A stretch of DNA of 64,000 nt from Octopus vulgaris. Lineage: Eukaryota. Position 1 is the stretch's first letter; each line of letters opens with the position of its first letter. The notes below the pieces were generated by a model, which saw only the letters and a program-made list of their open reading frames with translations, was not told where the DNA came from and ran no database searches. Both the position numbers and the translations under genes were made by a program. The stretch is from assembly GCA_951406725.2 (NCBI GenBank), contig OX597815.1:172050001-172114000 (forward strand). The letters are read 5' to 3'. This document shows positions 2,118 through 64,000 of the stretch, one piece after another.

Positions 2118-3220
2118 CCTATTAAATGAATTGCTAAATACTATCATTGTCATCATAACTAGCATCCCTGTTATTTTACGAAAGGCATTCAATGGCAGAA
2201 TCACTAGACTGTTGAACAAAATACTATGTTGTACTTAGTTGCCACTTCATGTTCTGACATCAAATTCTGCTACAGGTGACTCTTGTCATTCCATCTTCTG
2301 AGGTCAATACAATAAATATCAGTAACATATTGAGGTTATATAATTGGTGGGTCTCTCTCCTCAAATCTTCGGCCTTCGCCTTACGTAAAAAATTCTGTTT
2401 TGCAATATTTGGTTTAGGTGGCATTCTGGCAGAATCATTAGCACACCAGGTAAAATGTTTTGCAGCATTTCATCGATCCTTACGCTCTGAGTTCAAATAC
2501 GGCTGCAGTCAACTTTACTGTCATCCTTTTGGGGTTGATAAAATAAGTACCAGTTGAGCACTGGGGTCAATGTAATTGGCTTATCCCCTTTCCCCAAACT
2601 GCCAAAATCTGAAACCAAAATTTAGTTACATCTTTTTACCTTCTGAATTCAAGTTTACTCTTTATCCCTGTTATTGATAAAATATGTAACAATGAAATCC
2701 TGGGGTTGATTGAATCAACTACTTATCTAAAATTTGTAACCATAGAGTACTATAAAAAATGTGTTGGGGCATTTATGTTCATCTCCATTCTGAATGCAAA
2801 TAATGCAGAAATTAACTTCATTACATACAAGTCATGATGGGATCAACTGAATTGTCCTTGTCTTGTGTCAATCTGAGAAACCTATTATTGTTGAAGGATG
2901 GTGGATTAGCAGAATTGTTTGAGAGTTTGAAAAATTTCCTTGCAGTATTTGTTCCAGCACTTTACATTCTGGATCCAAATCCCACCAAAATTCACTTTGT
3001 TTTTCATCCTTCAGGAGATTGATAAAATAAAATATGGGGTAACAGGACTAAACAGGGACTGAAAAGAGAGACTAGAAAGCAGATGCTGCAAACTAACACC
3101 AGAGACAGGTCCCTCTTAAGATATTCCCATTATTGTTCAACGACTAGTTGTGCTATTTAGTGCTTTGCTTGTAAATAAAATATGGGTAATAGCACTAAGA
3201 AGTAATGTGTATAGACAAAC

Positions 3221-3482
3221 TTGTTACCAGTTCAAATTTGTTTGAGGCATATTTGATCCCATAAGAAAGCCATTATTTTTTCACAGAGAAAATTTCTTGC
3301 TGAAGACATGTTAGTCTACAATGCTCTCTAACCAGACTGTTGGATGCATGCATTTCAGAGTGGTTATCTCCTGCCTTTACACCTATTTGCTTACAGTGAG
3401 AAATTTTCTCCTTGACAAAAATACAGTGAATGGCTTTCTTATAGGTTTGAACAAGCTTCAAACATATTTGAACTGGTAACAA
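3221..3482. mobile_element. Foldback MITE-like element
   Basis: 28-bp terminal inverted repeats (3221-3248 / 3455-3482) plus internal inverted blocks (3258-3274 / 3429-3445). Confidence 0.7.
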
Positions 3483-3556
3483 TTTGTACTGATAAAATAA
3501 AGTATCAGTCAAGTACAGGGGTCTATTAATTAAATGATCCTTCTTTCCAGATTTCT

Positions 3557-12645: not shown

Positions 12646-14505
12646 TATAAATGGAAAATACAGGATTCAGAATAGATATAGTTAGTATAAGATTTAATTT
12701 TTAACATTTTATCGAGTGGTGGGTATAAAACCTTTCAGTGTTGATTGAGTTGAAGATGGTTCTGTCTCTAAAATTACTTTTATATATATATATATATATA
12801 TATCATCATCATCGTCGTTTAACGTCCGTTCTCCATGCTAGCATGGGTTGGACGGTTCGACCGGGGTTCTGGGAAGCCAGAAGGCTGCACCAGGCTCCAG
12901 TCTAATCTGGCAATGTTTCTACAGCTGGATGCCCTTCCTAACGCCAACCATATATATATGACACAGTTTCTATCACCCAAATTCCACTCACAAACTATTG
13001 CTCAACCTACATGGTGGAATAATACTAGCTCAAGGTGCTACAAAGTGCGGCCAAACCTGGAGCCATGTGGTTGTGAGGTAAACTCTTAGTCACACAACCA
13101 TGAGCAATAAATGATTTCGAAAGGATAAAAGGTAAAGGGAAATAATTAACGTCAGTAAAGTATTTTCTAAGATTATACTGTCCATCACCTTACACAACAG
13201 CGTAACATTAGTTATATATACACATACACACATAAAGTAACTAACAGGGCAACAAGGTTTAACAGAAAGTATAACATAAATTTTAAGGGATGAAAATTAA
13301 GTTTAGTATATACTAAGTAAGTTGTAACTAGAAGAGTCAAGAATATTGGATGATAGAAAATGAGCAAGTATCATACAGAATGCTCGTGTTATCTTTCTTT
13401 TCATGAAAGATACCTCAATGGAATTTTTTCTGTTCAGGTTTCTCAAGCAATCACTATTCAAGATGAATATTAAGTGCATTAATGTTATCTGACAGCTTTC
13501 TATCTCTCAGTATGGATGAATATAACCCTTTTAAAACCAAATCAGCTGAGACACCTTTGGTCCTATGGTACAAACTCCCAATTTTAAAGTGATTTCAATT
13601 TATTTAATCTCAAGAGAACAGATGTCTCAATTCAACATACAAAATGTATAAAAAGCTTAGCAGCTTCAAAAAGATGGCAAAAAAACCTTTAATTCTGGTC
13701 TTAGTACCAAATATAAATTGCTTTTTTGTAATCTTTTTATGCTCTGAAAGAAAATGCTTGACTCAGGAGTTGTGCATTTGTATATTCTCAAAAAATTTCA
13801 TTGTATTTTTGGGCAGGATTTTATTGCTTCTCCGTTCACAGTATTTGGCACATGAGACAGATTAGTATCAAGTATGGAAAAAGATTAGAGCTTCATGTGT
13901 GAAGACTAATAAAATATTACGATATTAGGCTGACATGAGTTATAATCATTTAAAAACTCCCATAAACCAAATGTACAATGTAGAAGTGTATGTGATATAA
14001 TGAACCATTTGTCTGGGTTCAACAATATTTTAAATACTTTGTATTAAGCATGTTTTGATTGATGTATACTATTAGTGTAATGACTAATAAAACACAGTAA
14101 AAGTGGGTATCAGATGTAGTGTACAAGGAGAGGACCGGACTGATATGGTCATGGAGGATGGTAGTTGGGTAAAGAAGTGCTATGAGAGCTAAGTAGGAGC
14201 AATTTACAGAGAAAGAAGACCAAAGAAAAATGAAAACTGATGTCAAGATGCTGAACCTCACAAAAGAACTGACTAAGAGACATGACAAACAGTGAGCTGT
14301 TGTGATGAAGAAGAAATACCCATGCAAACGTGGAAAAAAAAACCAATGTAAAAATTAATATGCTGATGCCAGTTGTACTAATTTTTACAGCCATTCTGAA
14401 TTACTATATTTTGAAATTCAGTTTTAAAAACAGAAGACAGTTGTGTGTTGAGGAGTCATGATTGATAAATCTGTCCAATTTCAATTTACTTTCTTCAATA
14501 TATAA

Positions 14506-25649: not shown

Positions 25650-26456
25650 TTCTTTCTACGTCTATAAAACTTTGCTATAGATAACATTGCGTGTTCTGCC
25701 CTGAGGAGCATACACAAAAAGAGCGATTCTACTCCCCACACGAGAGCAGGCCACATAAAGTTGCCCATGTGAAAAGCACGGTTCCCCCAAATGGATGCAT
25801 TCCACCGATTGTGTTTGGCCTTGTGATTTGTTGATGGACATGGCGAAGCATGACCTCACCGGGAACTGCGATCTGCGGAAGTTAAACGGCATGTCTGACC
25901 CCGGGGGATAAAGGTGCATCCTTGAAATGAAAACATATTCCCCCTCCCGCACACTGTAACAATGGTGGCCTCAATAAAGTGGGGCGTCAGGGACTTGTCT
26001 ACCAAGCGGGTCCCGATGCAATGTTCAGGTGGATAAAGCGTGTACTCTTTATCCCATTTGAGTTTTATTGAATGCTTGTGTAAAATTTTCTTAACAATAG
26101 GATATATTGTAAGTCTATACACACACACACACACGCAAACACACACTTGCTATTATTGTTGTTGTGATACATGTACTCTTTATTCTATTTGAGTTGTTGT
26201 TTTGAGGTGTTCCACTAATTGGATGGTAGGTTTTATGAGGTGAGGATTAAAGCAGTGATTTATTTCTGGTATCATTATATCATCGAAGATTTTATGGCAG
26301 GAGATAAGTTTCGGCGAGGACTATCCTTTGTTTTGAGTCACAGAGTTGTCAATGATCTATCAGCTGTTAAGGTACAGCATTCGGTAAATTCCGTAAAAAA
26401 AATTTATTTGGCTTTTGATGCGGAAAGAGAGAGAGACGGGGGGAAGTGTGTGTTGT

Positions 26457-26491
<35 letters not shown>

Positions 26492-26680
26492 TAGCGTAAA
26501 TTTTATTTTACTTTTTCTTGCATCTTTTTTAGCGTGTTTGACAGAGAGAGAGGGGGGAGCGTTACGATATCACACACACACACACACACTCTCTCTCTCT
26601 CTCTCTCTGTCAATCACTCACTCAAAAGAGATGCAACGAAAAAAATAATTTTAAAAATGTACGCTGTCACTCTCTCTCTC

Positions 26681-26718
<38 letters not shown>

Positions 26719-35079: not shown

Positions 35080-35517
35080 TTAAATCTCACAACGTGAGAT
35101 ATTCAGCAACAGTACTTTGTAGTAAAGATTGTTTGCCAACATAACAGTCCTGTGAAATTTAAAAATAGTAATTTTCTAATTTATAGATCAGTGACTAGTT
35201 GTCACTTTGAAAACTATATATATTTTGAATGGGAATTTGGCAGCCCCACCTCAGCCGAACAATTATTTTGTTTCTGATGAAGGGTAAATACCTGGAAATC
35301 GTGATACACAGATATTGTTTTGAGCTGAGTGGGCGTGCTAGATCCCCTTGTTCAAAAATATAAGGACACAGATCGTGTCGTGTAGCCAGCTGCAGACAAT
35401 GTCTCCTGGGGCTAAATTACAGCAACATTTGTCTTAAACCAGGACTGCCATGTTATGTTGGCAAACAATCTTTACTATAAAGTACTGTTGCTGAATATCT
35501 CACGTTGTGAGATTTAA
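35080..35517. repeat. Long inverted repeat (35080-35152 / 35440-35517)
   Basis: Arms differ by 1 mismatch and a 5-bp indel. Confidence 0.93.
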
Positions 35518-37789: not shown

Positions 37790-38692
37790 TGAAAAATCAA
37801 CGAAAATGCACATTGCAAATAAAAAAAAGACTATTTATGACAGTAACGACAAATATATACATTTAGATTGACTGAGGTAGTAATACGAGTCATAAAAGTC
37901 ATTATTATGAGATGATTATAAGATGATAATAAAGTAAGAGAACAAAACAGACCATGGTTTACGCAAAGCTATTCGTCATTTGAACAACACCGGTTGATAC
38001 ACGGTGTCAGGTCTAATAGTTCATGAGAAAAAAGATTATTTGTAAGGGAGGTAAGTAGTTCCGGATTATTTGTAAGGGAGATAAGTAGTTCTGGATTTAG
38101 AGATGTGAGTGGTGTAGGAAGTGTATAGGGGTTAGTGGTTTTAATTGAAGAGTTAGTGGTGTTCTGTATTGAGTTGTGTGTTCATGTTTAGTTGGGGGAG
38201 AAATTTATTGATGAAAAATGTCTCTTTATTCAACCTTTGTTGCATTGTGGTGTTCTGTGAACATTGGTAAAAGGGAAATATTTGGAAATTGGGATTAAGA
38301 TACCTGGCACATCTTTCTATGTGTACACTCACCTTTAACTGTCTGTATTGTGGGTGACAGATTTGCTCTTTGTGAATGGTGATTCTTTGACGGAGCGAAA
38401 TTTCTGTTTGTCCAATATAGAGTTTACCACATCCTATGCATGTCATGACATAGATTACATTTACTGAGGCGCAAGTGAAATTTGATTTGATCTTAAATAT
38501 TTCTCCTTGTTTGAATTGGAATTCTGAACCATCCAGAAGGTGGGGGCATGTTCCACAGTTAGAACGTCCACATTTTGTCACTTTTGGCTCTGTTGTTGGT
38601 GGATACAGTCTAGCGCTGGTTAATATTTTTTTCAGTGACTTCGGTTGCTTTTTGCTTTTTATAATTTTATATGAGCTTAAAATTTTGTTCAA
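37790..38692 (-). mobile_element. Penelope-like element 3' fragment with an open GIY-YIG endonuclease reading frame (38153-38692)
   Basis: CxxxxCxxC, VIY..C..C.K.YIGQT..LRQR, E..FI...P.LN; embedded between (TA)n tracts. Confidence 0.88.
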
Positions 38693-38745
38693 TGTTTTAA
38701 GCTCATATAAATTTTAAGCTCAAATTTTATATATATATTTATATA

Positions 38746-43172: not shown

Positions 43173-43373
43173 GTTGGTATTTTCATTTGACTATATATTC
43201 TATTTGTACAACTACTTTATTGTGATCATAATATTGCTTTCTACTATCGGCACAAGGCTGAAAATTTGGAGGAGGGAGCTAGTCAATTGCATCAGTCCTA
43301 GTGTTCAACTGGTACTTATTTTATCTACCCCAAAAGGATGAAAGGCAAAGTAAACCCTGGCAGAATTTGAACT

Positions 43374-43791
43374 TAAGGCAGCAAACTGGCAGAAACATTA
43401 GCACGCTAGGTGAAATGCTTAGCGGTATTTTGTCTGCCACTATGTTCTGGGTTCAAATTCCGCTGAGGTCGACTTTGCCTTTCATCCTTTCGGGGTCGAT
43501 TAAATAAGTACCAGTTACACACTGGGGTCAATGTAATTGACTTAATCCGGTTGTCTGTCCTTGTTTATCCCCTCTGTGTTTAGCCCCTTGTGGGTAGTAA
43601 AAAAATAGGTATTTTGTCTGCCGCTACATTCTGAATTCAAATTCCGCCGAGGTCGACTTTGCCTTTCATTCTTTTGGGGTTGATTAAATAAGTACCAGTT
43701 GCGCACTGGGGTCGATGTAATCGACTTAATCCGTTTGTCTGCCCTTGTTCATCCCTTCTATGTTTAGCCCCATGTGGGCAATAAAGAAATA
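43374..43791 (+). mobile_element. SINE family B tandem dimer inserted in an antisense family B copy
   Basis: 12-bp TSD AGAATTTGAACT at 43362-43373 and 43792-43803. Confidence 0.85.
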
Positions 43792-44012: not shown

Positions 44013-45299
44013 CGAGGGGCGTTCAATAAGTAATGCCCCTGACCCACTTCCCATAGCAGTAGAGCAACGAAACTTGGCACATTTATTAGTCTTTTTCTAC
44101 ATAGGAACCACCCAGAGTTATACATTTCTCCCATCGTTTGATGCGGCTCTGGAGACCGTTTTTGTAGAAGAACCCAGCTTGGTCCTCCAACCTCAACGTG
44201 ACTTCAGAAATCAAGGCTGCATCATCTGGGAAACGCTTTCCTTTCAAAAACAACTTCATGATTGGGAAGAGGTGAAAATCAGAGGGTGCAAGGTCAGGAA
44301 AGTAGGAGGGATGGGGAGGAGTTCATAGCCATACGCCTGTGCTTCTGATCTGGCGACAAGTTGTGGACCGGAGCGTTGTCCTGCAGGAGGAGGATGCCTT
44401 TGCTGATCTTGCCCCGCCTCTTGATTTTGATAACTTCTCTTAATTTCCTCAAAAGTGAAGCATAATAGGCTCCTGCAATTGTGGTACACTTTGCCAGGAA
44501 ATCTGTCATCACTACTCCGTCCTGGTCCCAGAAGACTGTGAGCATGACCTTGCCAGCGGAGGGCTGCACCCTTGCCTTCTTTGGAGGGGGTGAGTCACGG
44601 TGCTTCCACTGCATTGACTGGGCTTTGGTCTCTGGATCATCGTGATGGACCCAGGTTTCATCCTGTGTAATCAGTCTTTTGAAAAATTTTGACTCATCTT
44701 CTTGGCACATCTCCAAATTCACCCTCGAGCACTCGACGCGTTCTTGCTTCTGGAAAGGCGTGAGCAACCTGGGAATCCATCTGGCAGACACCTTTTGCAT
44801 ATGCAAATGGTCATGAATGATAGTTTCCACAGACCCGGTACTAATCTTGACCTCATGGGCTATTTGGCGAATAATTATGTGTCGATCTTCCAAAATGGCA
44901 GCCTCAACTTGACGGACAGATGCCTCATCAATGGCAGAAGGGGGCGACCAGATCTGGGAGCTGTTTCCACAGAGTTCCGACCATGTTTGAATTCACGATG
45001 CCAGTGTTTTACAAGGTCATATGATGGGGCATCATCACCATAAATTACTTTCATTTCATCAAAAGTCTCCCATGGTGTGCGTCCTTTCAAATACAAAAAC
45101 CGGATCACTGCTCGACACTCAACAGGCTCCATTTCACACTTGACTCGGTTCAAACACCTGTAAATCAGAAACCACAATTAATTCAGAGCTGTAATTTGCC
45201 ACTTACTCTATAGAGATATAAATGATTGCATATGCAAAATGTCAGCTAGATCAAACAACTGCAAGTGGGTCAGAGGCATTACTTATTGAACGTCCCTCG
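44013..45299 (-). mobile_element. Full-length mariner transposon (1287 bp) with frameshifted transposase (~45132->44086), in PPIL6 intron 6
   Basis: ~37-bp TIRs CGAGGGGCGTTCAATAAGTAATGCC..., TA TSDs, WIPRLL, QDETW, QDNAP and PDLAPSDF motifs. Confidence 0.95.
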
Positions 45300-48228: not shown

Positions 48229-48554
48229 TACACACACACATACATACAAGTTAAGTCAGTAAAAGACTGTAACATAGTTTTCAAGCAATTTGTCAATTAT
48301 TTTCTCATAAAGATGCCATCATCATCATAATCATCATCATCATCATCATCATCATTGTCACCAAAATCACCACTACCACCCCTAGTGCCGCTGCCACTTC
48401 ATCTGCTACCCAGTCTGCCTCCACTGTTCATTTACACAATCACTATGAAATGCTGGAAGCTGGAACTATAACTTCATGCAGTAAATATTGCCTCTTCGTC
48501 AGAGTTGAACTCTATTTTTTTTTCACTTTGTTCACATTATCGCCAGATATGTAA

Positions 48555-48662
48555 ACCACCACCATCCACCACCACCATCCACCACCATCATCCACCACCA
48601 CCACCACCACCACAACAACAACAACCACCACTGCTGCCACCACCACCGCCACCACCGCCACC

Positions 48663-48693
<31 letters not shown>

Positions 48694-48700
48694 CCATCAT
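48555..48700. repeat. (CCA)n/(CAA)n/(CAT)n microsatellite in PPIL6 intron 7
   Basis: Read directly; lies upstream of the exon 8 acceptor. Confidence 0.9.
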
Positions 48701-48791
48701 TTGCAGCAGCTGCTTCAGAAAGTATTCTATCTTCTTTGTCTGCATTTTTTATTTTTTTTTATTTCTTTTTTTTATTTCTTTTTTCATGCAG

Positions 48792-49422
48792 TCAACTTCT
48801 TGAAGGCACAGAGCTTCTACAGACATTAGAAGAAGAACAAACATTCAATGAGAGACCCATCAAGCCTTTAAGGATCTACAAATGTGAGGCATTTAATTTT
48901 ACAGAGTCTATTACCCATACACCACCATCTAACATGTCGGGAAGCATTCATGTTTTTCCAGAAGGGGATGAAGATGCTGAAAAAGAACATTCACCAGGTG
49001 AACAAGAAGATGCAGCAGATATACCAGAAAATGTAACAGATGAACCAGAAAATACCGTAGGTGTAACAGAAGATGTAGAAAATATACCAGAAGATGCAGA
49101 AGATGCACCAAAAGTTGGAGGTGATACACCAGATGATGAAGTAAATGTGCTGGATGATGCTTTTGTTGCACCTGAAGAGTTAGTAAATGCACCCGAAGAA
49201 AAAGTTGAACCAGATGAAAAAGTTGAGCCAGATGAAAAAGTTGAACCAGATGAAAAAGTTGAGCCAGATGAAAAAGTTGAACCAGATGAAAAAGTTGAGC
49301 CAGATGAAAAAGTTGAACCAGATGAAAAAGTTGAACCAGATGAAAAAGTTGAATCAGATGAAAAAGCTGAATCAGTTGAAAAAGAACAAATGCCTTCAAC
49401 AGAAGACTCCAAGGATACATAA
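48792..49422 (+). CDS. PPIL6: PPIL6 exon 8 (end of cyclophilin domain plus acidic repeat tail)
   Basis: Long polypyrimidine tract + catgcag; QLLEGTELL...NERP, then D/E/P-rich tail to TAA ending 49422. Confidence 0.92.
49006..49194 (+). repeat. Degenerate coding 21-bp (7-aa) repeat x9
   Basis: EDAADIP/ENVTDEP/ENTVGVT/EDVENIP/EDAEDAP/KVGGDTP/DDEVNVL/DDAFVAP/EELVNAP. Confidence 0.75.
49201..49380 (+). repeat. Coding 18-bp tandem repeat (KVEPDE)x8 plus 2 degenerate units
   Basis: AAAGTTGARCCAGATGAA units read directly. Confidence 0.97.
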
Positions 49423-58792: not shown

Positions 58793-59105
58793 TGGAGGTG
58801 CAATGGCCCAGTGGTTAGGGCAGCGGACTCGTGGTCGGAGGATTGCAGTTTTGATTCCCAGACCGGGCGTTGTGTGTGTTTATTGAGCGAGAACACCTAA
58901 AAGCTCCATGAGGCTCCAGCAGGGGGGTGGGGGTGGCAACCCCTATTGTACTCTTTCACCACAACTTTCTCTCACACTCTCTTCCTGTTTCTTGAGTAAC
59001 GCTGTGATGGACTGGCATCACATCCAGCTGGGGGGGGGGGGACATATGCCACAGAAACCGGGAAACTGGGCTCATGAGCCTGGCTAGGCTTGAAAAGGGC
59101 TTAAA
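58793..59105 (+). mobile_element. tRNA-derived SINE with V-domain-like segment
   Basis: TGGCCCAGTGGTTAGG A-box; GATGGACTGGCATCACATCCAG segment. Confidence 0.7.
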
Positions 59106-61334
59106 AAAGAGACAAAAAGATGTGTTGACAAACTTGAAATACAAGGGGTGAATTTGTCACCTAAATACACAGTTGTGTGCTTTTCATTAGCGTTAATGTA
59201 TGTTCATGAATGCCATATGCACATATGATTGTGAGTATATGTTCTTTACAGAAAACTCAAATGGAGAATCTCAGGAAGGTCTCACATATTTTGATGTACC
59301 ACTAATCAGTTGAATATGGAAGATACACATCAATTTGCTTTGTTATTTCTTGAAGAACTCAGCATTTCTAGTCTTTTATGCAAACCTGTTGTTATATAAC
59401 ATAATGCTCTAACAGATAATAGGTATGACAAGGCCTACAAAAGATAATTTGCACCCCAACAGAAAGTGATGGTTCATTCAAAATTCAAGGTTTTTCTGAT
59501 GGAGGATTTCATCAGATATCCACTAGTCCTTCCTCAAGATTTCATGACCTAAACTAATGTACCTTATACACATAAGAGAACATTTGAGATAGTTATAAAA
59601 TCGTTATAAGGTGAATGGTAATATTATATCACTTGGCTCTTGACCAGGCTCATCTAGTACAGGAGACCTGAGGTTCCAACAGAAACATATATTTCACCCT
59701 CGATACACAGAATATTTTATTGAATACAATTGTGTGACTGTAAAGAGCTAGTGACATTAATTATATGTATATAAATGGAATATGGCTGTAAGCATTCTGA
59801 ATATTTTAATAAAACATATTGTTGTTGCTATTAAAATATTTGAGAATATATTTTTTAGATATTTCTGTAATAAAGTATGTTATCATAGTTGCAAACACAA
59901 GCTCATATATGTCATTAGTTACAAGTGTATGTGCTTCTGGGCCTGGGTGTATGAGTGTATATTTATGCATGTAGCTTAACTGTCAGTCATCTTCATATTT
60001 ACTCTCTCACCCTCTCTCATTCTGTTCGATTCACGTTATCTCTTGCTGTCTGTCGGTCTCTGTCTCTCTCCCTCTCACTTACAGGCAAATAGACACACAC
60101 ACACTATATGAGTGTGCATGTATATCTATGTATGCACACACACACATTGAGGAATGCTTGAGAATAGGTGGTACGAGTCCAGCTTGCGTCTAGGAGCAGA
60201 AGCCATTATAGAACCAAAGGTAGTGAGAAGGGTCAACTTGCCTATGGGCAAGAGGATGGAGCATCTCTATGAGTAACTTTATGCTAATTAGTCAGGTGGT
60301 ACTTTTCTGGATGCATTCTTGGATGTCAGCAACAACACTGTTTCGTGATGTGAGAGCTATTCCATTGTTAGGCCTACTTTAAGCTTTGTAGAGTATCAAT
60401 AATTGTTGAGGATGAAGTATTTTCTGGCTCTTAAGAAAAGAGCCACTCTTTGTGATGCAATCTAGGCTATATTAAGGATACACTTTCATCAATCTCCCAC
60501 AAAATGTCACCCTACTGTCGCATGCATCTATATATGTATTAGCAGTGATAGAAACTTGTACGTGTTAGTTACATACTTTAGCCATGCATATACGCATGTT
60601 TTAAATTAATTTTACACACATCCATCCATACATACATACATATAAGGTCACTGTTAGTGCTACTGATAACCTAGTACAACCTGTCGTATGGTTGGACTGT
60701 TGTCAACTAAACTGATGACCCTACCAAACCTGTTAGGTAAGGAGGGTGGTTTTTGTCGGACATCCTGCAGGATGAAAACCAAACCAAGCCAAACCAAACC
60801 AAACCAAAACAAAACATAAAAGAAAGAAAGAAAGAAACCTTAAAGGAGAAATGGCATGGTTACATGGTACCTAGAAAGGATAGGGAGATAGAGAAAGCGG
60901 GTAGTGAAGGGCCTAGCAGTAACAATTAGACTATACTCTGCTAATGAGGTAAATAAATTTGAAACATGCCTAAAGTTGTTCATCATACTACCGAAGATCA
61001 GCCACACACCCCAGGGGCCAGAGCATTCTAAGTAATTACTGTAAATTCTGAAGTTGTCTTCTTTTGCTTTTCTCCACCGGAATTAATCACTAAGATAAAT
61101 GTCTTTACATCAGTATGGAAATTTCATGACTTACAACATTAAGTATGCTATATCCAACTTTACTAAATGATTTAGATGAGTTGACAAAGGTTCTCTCTCT
61201 AATACCACTAAGAAAAATACAAACTCTGTGTTCCCTATAAAATCATTGAATTACTTGACAATTGATGCACTTTGTAATTCAATAACCAATCTATTCGTCC
61301 ATTTCTTTGCTCCATAAAGTAGATAAATTCCATA

Positions 61335-61388
61335 TTACAACACTTGGATATATGTGTGTGTGTATACACAGGTGCACAGGTATGCGCA

Positions 61389-61437
<49 letters not shown>

Positions 61438-63071
61438 ATTCTCACCACATGACCATACCAGCGCAATCGTCTCTCTTGCACACAACATCTGATTCCTCTT
61501 AGGTCCAACTTTTCTCTCAAGGTACTTACACTCTGTCGACTATGAACACTGACATTACACATCCAACGGAGCATACTAGCTTCATTTCTCGCGAGCTTAC
61601 ACATGTCCTCAGCAGTCACGGCCCATGTTTCACTGCCATGTAGCATGGCTGTTCGTACACATGCATCATACAGTCTGCCTTTTACTCTGAGCGAGAGGCC
61701 TTTAGTCACCAACAGAGGTAAGAGCTCCCTAAACTTTGCCCAGGCTATTCTTACTCTAGCCGTTACACTTTCAGCACATCCACCCCAACTACTGACTTGG
61801 TCACCAAGATAATGGAAGCTATCAACTACTTCTAGTTTTTCCCCCTGGAAAGTGACGGAAGTTGTTTTCTGCAGATTTTCAGAGGTTAATGCTCCCGAGC
61901 ATCTGCCACATACAAAAACCATCTTCCTAGTTAGCCTTCCTATGACATTGCTGCACCTCTTATGTGTCCATAGCTTACACTTGGTGCATCTTATAGAGTT
62001 TCTACCTACACCTTTTCTACAGATCGAGCAGGGCCATCTACCTGAAGGCGTTTGTGATTTGTCTACCTTCCTACTTATTAGGACTTTGGTTTTAGCTAGG
62101 TTGACTCTAAGGCCCTTCGATTCTAAACCATGCTTCCACACCTGAAACTTCTTCTCCAGTTCTGATAATGACTCAGCAATTAGAGCAAGGTCATCAGCAT
62201 AGAGGAGCTCCCAGGGGCATCCTGTCTTGAATTCCTCTGTTATTGCCTGGAGGACTATGATAAATAGGAGGGGGCTGAGGACTGAGCCTTGGTGGACCCC
62301 TACCTCTACCCGGAATTCTTCACTGTACTCATTTCCAACCCTCACCTTACTAGCAGCGTCCCTGTACATGGCTTGCACAGCTCTCACTAACCATTCATCT
62401 ATTCCTAGTTTCCTCATTGACCACCATATGAGGGATCGGGGGACCCTGTCGAAGGCTTTCTCCATGTCAACAAAAGCCAGGTACAGGAGCTTATCTTTGG
62501 CTAGGTATTTCTCCTGCAGCTGCCTTACCAGGAATATAGCATCAGTGGTACTTTTCCCTGGCACGAAACCAAACTGCATCTCATCTAAACTAACTCTCTC
62601 TCTAATTAGTTGGCTTATGACCCTCTCTGTAACCTTCATCACCTGATCCAACAGCTTGATACCTCTGTAATTATTTGTATCTAGGGCATCACCTTTACCT
62701 TTGTAGCAGTTGACTATTATGCTGCTACACCAGTCATTGGGTATGACTCCTTCATGTATCACCTGATTAACTATACAGGTGACTAGGCTATAGCCGACAC
62801 TACCAGATATTTTGAGCATCCCTGCAGTGATACCTGATGGGCCTGGGGCTTTCCCTGTCTTCATGCTTCTAATTGCCTTAGCTACTAAGGAACTATCAAC
62901 CCTGATAGCTGGTCCCTCTGTTGGGTCAACGTTCGGCAGACTCTCTTTATCCCATTCATTTTCTTTATTCAGCAACCTTTCATAGTGGCGTCTCCAAGCC
63001 TCTCTCTTAAAGTTGGATATAGCATACTTAATGTTGTAAGTCATGAAATTTCCATACTGATGTAAAGACAT
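61335..63071 (-). CDS. Chimeric ORF: RTE reverse transcriptase with internal PHD-like finger, no endonuclease domain
   Basis: 578 aa without stops; YADD at 62201-62190; N-terminal ~21 aa come from captured flank and the C-terminus from microsatellite. Expression unknown. Confidence 0.55.
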
Positions 63072-64000
63072 TTATCTTAGTGATTAAGAGGAATCAGATG
63101 TTGTGTGCAAGAGAGACGATTGCGCTGGTATGGTCATGTGGTGAGAATGGATGAAGATAGGTGTGTGAAAAAGTGCCACACCCTGGCAGTTGAGGGGACC
63201 TGTGGAAGAGGTAGACCCAGGAAAACCTGGGTCGAGGTGGTGAAGCACGACCTTCGAACTCTAGGTCTCACCAAGGAAATGACCAGAGACCGAGACCTAT
63301 GGAAGTATGCTGTGCGTGAGAAGACCCGGCAAGACCAGTGAGAACAATCAAAATCAAATCATATATCAGAAAGCAGGGGTTAAGTGACCCATCCATTCGT
63401 GTCCGCTGTCAGCCTCGTCCTGGCACCTGTGCCGGTGATACGTAAAAGCACCATTCGCTCGTGGCCGTTTGCCAGCTCTGCCTGGCCCCGTGTCGGTGGC
63501 ACGTAAAAGCACCATCCGTTCATTGCCAGCCTCGCCTGGCCCCGTGCCGGTGACATGTAAAAGCACCGTCCGTTCGTGGCCGTTTGCCAGCTCTGTCTGG
63601 CCCCGTGTCGGTGGCACGTAAAAGCACCATCCGTTCGCGTCCGTTGCCAGCCTCGGCTGGCCCCCGTGCCGGTGACACGTAAAAGCACCGTCCGTTCGTG
63701 GCCGTTTGCCAGCTCTGTCTGGCCCCGTGTCGGTGGCATGTAAAAGCACCATCCGTTCATGTCCGTTGCCAGCATCGCCTGGCCCCGTGCCGGTGACACG
63801 TAAAAGCACCATCCGTTCGTGGCCGTTCGCCAGCTCTGTCTGGCACCTGTGCAGGTGGCACGTAAAAAACACCCACTACACTCGCGGAGTGGTTGGCGTT
63901 AGGAAGGGCATCCAGCCGTAGAAACACTGCCAGATCTGACTGGGCCTGACGAAGCCTTCCAGCTTCACAGACCCCAGTTGACCCGTCCAACCCATGCTAG
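61434..64000 (+). mobile_element. RTE-clade LINE, 5'-truncated with 5' inversion (RT inverted at 61434-63008; sense 3' part from 63085 past the window end)
   Basis: RT motifs GKAPGPSGI, QFGF, VDMEKAFD, GVHQGSVLSP, YADD on the minus strand; RTE C-terminus RRLRWYGHV...GRGRPRKTW and 3' UTR on the plus strand. Confidence 0.93.
63388..63870 (+). repeat. ~60-bp GC-rich minisatellite x8 in the RTE 3' UTR, two alternating unit types
   Basis: Units end in ...GGTGRCACGTAAAAGC; related arrays at 21380-21740, 15170-15280 and 39180-39310. Confidence 0.9.

What the first reader, a model, noticed from the sequence alone, without database searches (positions are those of the whole stretch)
61083..63152. RTE LINE with twin-priming-type inversion that captured 80 bp of its own flank at the inversion junction
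Seen: the top strand reads (TA)n, antisense RT (61434-63008), an exact 80-bp inverted copy (63008-63087) of DNA at 61083-61162 (~270 bp upstream of the insertion), then the sense LINE 3' end from 63085. 68 bp of LINE (61434-61501 / 63085-63152) is present in both arms, and the right junction has TAA microhomology. Established: twin priming explains 5' inversions of mammalian L1. Inference: the same occurred for this RTE element, with a template jump onto nearby genomic DNA before resolution. The perfect identity implies a recent event.
Basis: partly seen in the sequence, partly recalled or inferred. Interest (0 to 1): 0.8.

Follow-up and report, generated by a model that had tools for sequence, protein, structure and literature searches.

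The report
Half-inverted LINE patched with neighbouring DNA
In this assembly a young RTE-type jumping gene has its front half flipped and an 80-base copy of nearby DNA sitting at the flip point; this likely arose as it inserted, by a route known from human L1 elements, but two of its three junctions were not seen in any reads.

Summary
Every coordinate checks out. The layout is flank–A(80 bp)–B–(TA)n–[inverted LINE arm, 1,575 bp, open RT+PHD frame]–A'(exact inverted copy)–[sense 3' arm]. 68 bp of LINE lie in both arms; microhomologies are 2, 1 and 3 bp. The 80 bp is single-copy flank, not LINE consensus. Best reading (0.6): twin priming during insertion, with the inversion joint patched by templated copying of flank A and closed by microhomology. 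This combination is known, though rare, for human L1 (1 case, 0.1%, PMC10191854). My searches found no report for RTE elements, and one related locus of 84 (L047) shows the same inverted geometry without a patch. Reads did not settle it. No contig of three runs crosses the LINE/A' or A'/LINE joint. Two runs show flank–A–B unbroken. In the third, a contig stops exactly at A's last base, the predicted fork, which indirectly supports one junction. The 3' end and any target-site duplication lie about 40 bp past the window. Rivals: a later rearrangement between two alleles (0.2), mis-assembly (0.15). New variant of a known process, single locus; interest 0.35.

The parts
61083..61162 (+). A: single-copy flank DNA, donor of the 80-bp patch
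   Evidence: one contig per run covers it and continues into flank, and in X1/X2 into B
61163..61404 (+). B: flank DNA between donor and insertion site, ending in a (TG)n run; not duplicated within the window
61405..61435 (+). (TA)n microsatellite, likely target site; its last AT is shared with the LINE (J1, 2-bp microhomology)
   Evidence: another copy with this family's 3' end at about 12.8-12.95 kb has (TA)n on both sides
61434..61501 (-). E': 68 bp of LINE present in both arms (internal duplication at the inversion)
61434..63008 (-). Inverted 5' arm of the LINE: 525 open codons, RT domain and PHD-like finger; residues 482-1006 of full-length relative P0002; endonuclease half absent
63008..63087 (-). 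A': exact inverted copy of A at the inversion joint; 1-bp (T) microhomology with the inverted arm (J2), 3-bp (TAA) with the sense arm (J3)
   Evidence: family continuation at 63008 from loose ends
63085..63341 (+). Sense 3' arm, end of the ORF (residues 984-1065 of P0002), stop at 63339-63341
63342..64000 (+). 3' UTR with a 61/122-bp tandem array (63389-63867); about 36 bp of UTR and the (GAT)n tail lie beyond the window end, judged from older copies in the window

Best explanation
A young RTE-type LINE likely inserted into the (TA)n run by twin priming, and the joint between its two cDNAs was likely patched with 80 bases copied from flank DNA 271 bp away and then closed on a TAA microhomology. 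Steps. (1, inferred) The bottom strand is nicked in (TA)n and primes on the (GAT)n tail, copying the 3' arm as far as 63085. (2, inferred; the geometry is shown) The top-strand end anneals by AT inside the RNA and copies 1,575 nt in inverted orientation, 68 nt of it twice. (3, inferred) One cDNA end leaves the RNA and copies A. The simplest version is the top-strand end folding back onto its own resected left arm at 61162; priming of the bottom-strand end on TAA at 61083 gives the same letters. (4, inferred) The ends are joined by microhomology-mediated end joining. The RT itself or a host polymerase-theta-type enzyme could do step 3; the sequence cannot tell which. The product is a dead copy without endonuclease; no function is implied.
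For: The arms tile one ORF with a 23-codon overlap, and the inverted arm is the 5' part, as in L1 twin priming, where 17% of inversions carry an internal duplication. Microhomology at all three joints, 2+1+3 bp; chance of a sum of 6 or more is 0.03-0.08. A is single-copy and the family continues with LINE sequence past 63008. (TA)n is also the site of another copy with this 3' end. In run X3 the contig over A is 2,086 bp and ends on A's last base, the fork that J2 predicts; crude chance 0.0014 if one contig end falls at random in unique DNA, about twice that if two do. A 64-kb window without N and an open 525-codon frame in a family with 2,936 contigs laid on 271 bp in X1 suggest a long-read assembly (inference). 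L047, 1 of 84 related loci, shows an inverted 5' arm, a 70-77-bp gap and a short microhomology before a sense 3' arm with tail. Precedent: human L1 with both inversion and flank foldback, n=1 (0.1%), patches of about 52-220 bp; 22 templated insertions; R2 snap-back onto nearby rDNA.
Against: No contig in X1 (about 80% read), X2 or X3 (whole) crosses J2 or J3; depth over A' is flat at one contig per run. X1 and X2 run flank-A-B unbroken, and all three are unbroken at A's start, where J3 predicts a fork. X2 and X3 are one sample and disagree at the J2 fork. No J1 loose end at 63152 is among those shown (46 not shown). X11 laid 0 reads, so no test. The donor lies 271 bp from the site, whereas L1 templates are typically within 15 bp. 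68 bp is long against L1 medians of 22 and 12 bp. 5' inversion was seen only with L1 in human cells, bar one Nimb-2 insert. No TSD can be seen. L047 is old, from a short-read contig, and shows no TSD.
Confidence: 0.6

Rival explanations
1. Real DNA but a later rearrangement. An ordinary 5'-truncated copy first inserted right after A (flank-A-LINE; J2 is its old 5' junction). Replication then switched from the empty allele at (TA)n into that allele in reverse (J1), copied E'M'A', and switched back (J3). This gives an inversion with inverted duplications at both ends, like a staggered-break or template-switch inversion.
For: The inverted unit [A-M-E] is duplicated at both ends. X3's pattern, a stop at A's end and no stop at A's start, is just what a flank-A-LINE plus flank-A-B pair of alleles would give. 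J2 has only 1 bp of microhomology, like a plain 5' junction.
Against: It needs two events and two alleles at one site, where the best model needs one event. No contig shows A running into the LINE in any run. The outer breakpoint falls in (TA)n, which this family uses as a target at least once in the window.
Confidence: 0.2
2. Assembly artefact: a piece A-M-E from a haplotype with an ordinary insertion after A was placed in reverse between the empty-allele flank and the rest of the LINE.
For: No read-derived contig crosses J1, J2 or J3. Perfect short duplications at both ends of an inverted block, next to a microsatellite, resemble unmerged overlaps. The J3 30-mer is absent from the metagenome collection (which has little power), and the fused ORF is not in the protein collection (little power).
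Against: No N in the window. The duplications differ in length (80 and 68), unlike one k-mer overlap. False joins would not be expected to carry 2- and 3-bp microhomology (0.16 x 0.055 by chance). Logan contigs are simplified with SPAdes-like heuristics; such heuristics can delete short low-coverage links into high-copy repeats (recalled), so their silence is weak evidence.
Confidence: 0.15
3. Pure cDNA snap-back without second priming on RNA, as described for R2 in PRINT insertions.
For: R2 insertions show flank joined to antisense element and synthesis on nearby rDNA.
Against: Snap-back copies sequence already in the sense arm. Here 1,507 of the 1,575 inverted bases lie 5' of the sense arm and occur once.
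Confidence: 0.05

Closest known systems
Human L1 5' inversion by twin priming with internal duplication (Ostertag and Kazazian model, as described in PMC2912911, PMC12016303, bioRxiv 10.1101/2024.08.27.596794)
   Same: Inverted 5' arm, 5' truncation, overlap at the inversion point, microhomology at the outer and inner joints.
   Different: RTE-type element with a (GAT)n tail in an AT-rich animal genome, not L1. Overlap 68 bp against medians of 22 and 12 bp. TSD not visible.
L1 insertions with flank-templated DNA: foldback inverted duplication plus twin priming (PMC10191854: n=3 alone, n=1 both; about 52-220 bp), templated insertions (10.1101/2024.08.27.596794: n=22; PMC11702581: n=3)
   Same: An inverted copy of upstream target-flank DNA of similar size, together with a 5' inversion.
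   Different: Here the patch sits at the internal inversion joint, and the donor ends 271 bp from the site (typical: within 15 bp). The published cases' exact layouts are in figures and supplements I did not see.
Flank-derived 5' extra nucleotides of zebrafish L2 (PMC4245944) and R2 snap-back junctions (PMC11371274)
   Same: Non-L1 LINE cDNA ends copying nearby target DNA before joining.
   Different: Those lie at the outer 5' junction. L2 gave no 5' inversion, and snap-back duplicates sequence of the sense arm.
RTE-clade LINEs such as octopus RTE-2_OV (PMC9115989)
   Same: Relatives have one ORF of about 1,020-1,140 aa with endonuclease, RT and a zinc-binding finger, and a repeat-rich 3' end.
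   Different: Identity with RTE-2_OV is not shown: four window motifs were not found in 8 of its 12 supplementary files, and the paper's finger is called C2H2, whereas Pfam gives PHD here.

Membership tests
RTE-clade non-LTR retrotransposon | Single ORF with APE-type endonuclease followed by RT (definition recalled; single ORF for octopus RTE) | tested here: met
   In relatives at 55-60% identity: P0002 has Exo_endo_phos + RVT_1; 10 of 10 near-full-length loci examined have one long frame of 1,021-1,143 aa and no frame of 150 aa or more before it. The window copy itself lacks the 5' half.
RTE-clade non-LTR retrotransposon | 3' end in a microsatellite-like tail, no poly(A), no LTR | tested here: met
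   Older copies sharing the 3' end finish in (GAT)n. This copy's own tail is past the window end. RTE tails described.
RTE-clade non-LTR retrotransposon | RT groups with named RTE elements in a phylogeny | not testable with these tools
   No named clade references were returned.
RTE-clade non-LTR retrotransposon | TSD of 7-15 bp | not testable with these tools
   The 3' junction lies about 40 bp past the window; no genome is held.
Twin-primed (5'-inverted) LINE insertion | Inverted arm is the part 5' of the sense arm, with a short gap or overlap | tested here: met
   Residues 482-1006 inverted, 984-1065 sense.
Twin-primed (5'-inverted) LINE insertion | Microhomology at the outer 5' junction and at the inversion joint | tested here: met
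   2 bp at J1, 1 bp at J2, 3 bp at J3; only modestly above chance.
Twin-primed (5'-inverted) LINE insertion | Whole insert bounded by a TSD, with an empty allele flank-(TA)n-Z | tested here: inconclusive
   Contigs of X1 and X2 stop inside (TA)n at about 61407-61409; what follows is not seen.
Twin-primed (5'-inverted) LINE insertion | Junctions present in real molecules | tested here: inconclusive
   No contig crosses J2 or J3; one contig ends at the J2 fork; J1 not seen.
Flank-templated insertion at a LINE junction | Patch is unique nearby genomic DNA, not element consensus or a common repeat | tested here: met
   One contig per run over A, against about a thousand or more over the LINE parts; family continues with LINE sequence at 63008 and 63085; homolog residues upstream do not resemble the A-derived peptide in the 4 relatives printed.

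The most novel reading that the evidence does not exclude
RTE-clade LINEs of invertebrates use twin priming as a regular insertion route, so 5' inversion is not a speciality of mammalian L1, and their cDNA ends can reach several hundred bases back into resected flank to capture and relocate host DNA. This locus and L047 would be two instances from different animals.
Probability: 0.3. Interest if true: 0.55.

Novelty: new variant of a known kind. Interest (0 to 1): 0.35.

Why it matters
Cell-culture work found 5' inversion almost only with L1 in human cells and tied it to L1's ~15-bp overhang (PMC4245944). A verified twin-primed RTE with a patch from 271 bp away would extend the mechanism to another clade and host group. 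It would imply resection of at least 350 nt at the insertion site under the fold-back version, and it would show LINE insertion making small inverted duplications of host DNA in the germ line. As one unverified locus of a process known from L1, it is a useful lead for a genome-wide count, not a new system.

Tried and rejected
The window's genome is not held, so the 3' junction, TSD and other family copies could not be read. The exact fused ORF (three start choices) is not in the protein collection, and the J3 30-mer is not in metagenome contigs; both tests have little power. No homolog from the same family (over 90%) came up among the 120 listed in either protein search (best identity 76%, over part of the query). 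Earlier scan notes: nothing by place, sequence or words. Of 84 related loci, 5 had matches on both strands; 4 were set aside: L008 is a perfect palindrome, L024 and L083 hold two copies 90-94% alike, and L076's second match is about 23% identical. Rejected: 80 bp as LINE consensus or common repeat; chance; two independent head-to-head insertions (the arms tile one ORF); pure snap-back. The claim that RTE twin priming is not in print rests only (full text of open-licence PMC and bioRxiv); the key RTE junction survey (Ichiyanagi and Okada 2008) appeared only as a citation and was not read.

Full report
Observation. 61083-61162 (A) and 63008-63087 (A') are an 80/80 inverted pair, and 61434-61501 (E') and 63085-63152 (E) a 68/68 inverted pair. 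Chance is excluded (about 1e-32). The top strand reads flank, A, B (242 bp to the (TA)n run; 271 bp to the LINE), (TA)n, E'M', A', E, D. The inverted arm is 525 open codons with an RT domain and a weak PHD hit. The sense arm ends the ORF at 63341 and runs into a 3' UTR with a 61/122-bp array. Against the full-length relative P0002 (endonuclease, RT, PHD) the arms cover residues 482-1006 and 984-1065, so they are one element with a 23-codon overlap. Older copies in the window show that about 36 bp of UTR and a (GAT)n tail lie just past 64000, so the 3' junction and any TSD cannot be seen; no genome is held.

What the element is. Relatives at 55-60% identity have a single frame of 1,021-1,143 aa in 10 of 10 near-full-length loci examined, most ending in short tandem repeats. 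That is RTE architecture (definition recalled; tails as in PMC6007223, passages). No phylogeny with named clades was possible. The 3' end looks to me like octopus RTE/SINE ends; that is recalled and comes from no call. Identity with RTE-2_OV (PMC9115989, passages) was not shown: four motifs were absent from 8 of 12 supplementary files (files 5-8 not searched). The family is young and abundant: in run X1, 2,936 contigs were laid on 271 bp, 912 of them at least 99% alike. The perfect duplications alone only bound divergence at 2%.

Junctions. J1, (TA)n to inverted arm, shares AT; J3, A' to sense arm, shares TAA. For J2, loose ends at 63008 in X1, X2 and X3 (14, 10 and 6 contigs) give the family's continuation. 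It is LINE sequence matching the residues that relatives have upstream, so the 80 bp is not consensus and J2 shares one T. A sum of 6 bp over three random joints has a chance of 0.03-0.08: modest support. One other copy with this 3' end, near 12.8 kb, has (TA)n on both sides; the two other tails picked up do not.

Read test. One search listed 24 runs, 10 holding part of the flank. I laid 4 of them on 62930-63200. X11 (raw reads, 3% read) laid nothing: no test. In X1 (about 80% read), X2 and X3 (whole; one sample) depth over A' is flat and comes from one contig each, so no laid contig crosses J2 or J3; 46 loose ends and 5,058 pieces were not shown, and no J1 loose end is among those shown. Mapped back without indels, these contigs are the donor locus: X1 60619-61409 and X2 60113-61407 run flank-A-B unbroken, while X3 runs 59077-61162 and stops on A's last base. 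A k=31 graph of the window allele forks exactly there, and also at A's start. The X3 stop has a crude chance of 0.0014 if one end falls at random in unique DNA, about double if the 59077 end is counted too. I read it as indirect evidence that A has a second continuation in that sample, which may be the assembly's own source and so not independent. Against my reading: X2, from the same sample, shows no stop, and none of the three stops at the J3 fork. Logan contigs pass through SPAdes-like simplification (PMC12424806, passages); that such steps delete short low-coverage links into high-copy repeats is my recollection, and the tool warns that holes prove nothing. The test is therefore inconclusive for J3 and J1, and X3's pattern fits a simple flank-A-LINE allele equally well.

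Related loci. An alignment of 15 proteins fetched 79 metagenome loci (from the best 80 of 585 confirmed stretches, in 8 of 64 parts scanned) and 5 genome loci. Five of 84 had matches on both strands; about 31 had a roughly visible 5' side. Four were set aside (a palindrome, two double copies, one weak second match). L047, read on its minus strand, has a (TG)n flank, an inverted arm of about 1.25 kb split by a later SINE-like insert, a joint with about 2 bp of microhomology, a 345-bp sense arm with tail, and 70-77 bp missing between the arms relative to four sister loci. This is twin-priming geometry in an RTE-type relative from another dataset, but it is old (about 85% to relatives), short-read assembled and without a visible TSD.

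Mechanism. Most likely (0.6), the element inserted at (TA)n with both target strands priming on one RNA. The tail-primed cDNA ran 68 nt past the internal primer. One cDNA end then copied A and the two ends joined on microhomology. Shown: the geometry, the microhomologies, the uniqueness of A. Inferred: that it happened at insertion, the order of steps, the strand and the enzyme. Fold-back of the top strand onto its resected left arm (priming on 1 bp, closing on 3 bp) and invasion by the bottom strand (priming on 3 bp, closing on 1 bp) give the same letters. The rivals are a later template-switch rearrangement between an empty allele and a flank-A-LINE allele (0.2), a mis-join of those two haplotypes (0.15), and pure snap-back (0.05).

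Comparison. For human L1, 29.5% of somatic inserts had an internal inversion, 3 a foldback duplication of upstream flank and 1 both, with about 52-220 bp of extra synthesis (PMC10191854, passages). Internal duplications occur in 17% of inversions, median 22 bp, and 22 templated insertions came mostly from under 250 bp within 15 bp of the site (10.1101/2024.08.27.596794, passages and part of section 4). Three such inserts are in PMC11702581 (passages); overlap median 12 bp in PMC12016303 (passages); the model is set out in PMC2912911 (passages). In culture, inversion was confined to L1 in human cells but for one Nimb-2 insert, while L2 took extra nucleotides from flanks (PMC4245944, passages). 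R2 shows snap-back onto nearby rDNA (PMC11371274, passages). PMC4476161 (passages) found only template-switch chimeras for L2 and RTE; PMC5389967 mentions twin priming only in its references. Two full-text searches returned no report of RTE twin priming, but they miss subscription papers, and unseen figures and supplements of the L1 papers may hold the same layout.

Verdict. The feature is in the assembly as described and works like an L1 twin-priming inversion with a templated patch. What would be new is the clade, the host group and the donor distance. It is one locus whose key junction is unverified: new variant of a known kind, interest 0.35.

Noticed in passing
window 61335-63071 (-): A' supplies an in-frame ATG and 21 codons to the inverted RT arm, giving a 578-aa open frame that ends in the microsatellite and B. 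Probably chance; no evidence of expression; not in the protein collection.
   Followed up: partly
L047 (minus strand, about 175-2030): RTE-type relative with an inverted 5' arm, a 70-77-bp gap and a sense 3' arm with tail: a second candidate twin-priming product, with no flank patch.
   Followed up: partly
window 63140, 63154, 63178 (loose ends): Single contigs leave the sense LINE body into other DNA at these places (63140 in both X2 and X3). They could be outer junctions of other inverted copies, or later breaks.
   Followed up: no
window about 12790-12960 (-): Short copy with this family's 3' end, with (TA)n on both sides; four more older relatives near 15.0-15.25, 17.7-17.85, 21.6-21.9 and 39.2-39.5 kb.
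   Followed up: partly
window 44294-44992 (-): Mariner-type transposase fragment, 232 open codons, Transposase_1 E 9e-23.
   Followed up: partly
window 38153-38713 (-): GIY-YIG domain frame of 186 aa, E 4e-6; perhaps the end of a Penelope-like element (recalled resemblance).
   Followed up: partly
window 48472-49422 (+): 316-codon acidic frame with a six-residue repeat (36-bp direct repeats at about 49198-49335); no Pfam match.
   Followed up: no
window 35080-35146 / 35451-35517; 26446-26714; 43281-43542; 3215-3487: A 67-bp inverted pair (98.5%) about 300 bp apart and several imperfect palindromes, like MITEs; also a ~420-450-bp repeat family at 1.7, 14.5, 27.0, 55.0 and 56.3 kb.
   Followed up: no
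L080-L084: Eukaryote-type RTE-like LINEs on contigs of five bacterial MAGs, probably host DNA binned in; L082 lies on a 494-kb contig.
   Followed up: no
L008: A perfect 4,046-bp palindrome of an RT-bearing LINE part, probably a fold-back artefact.
   Followed up: no
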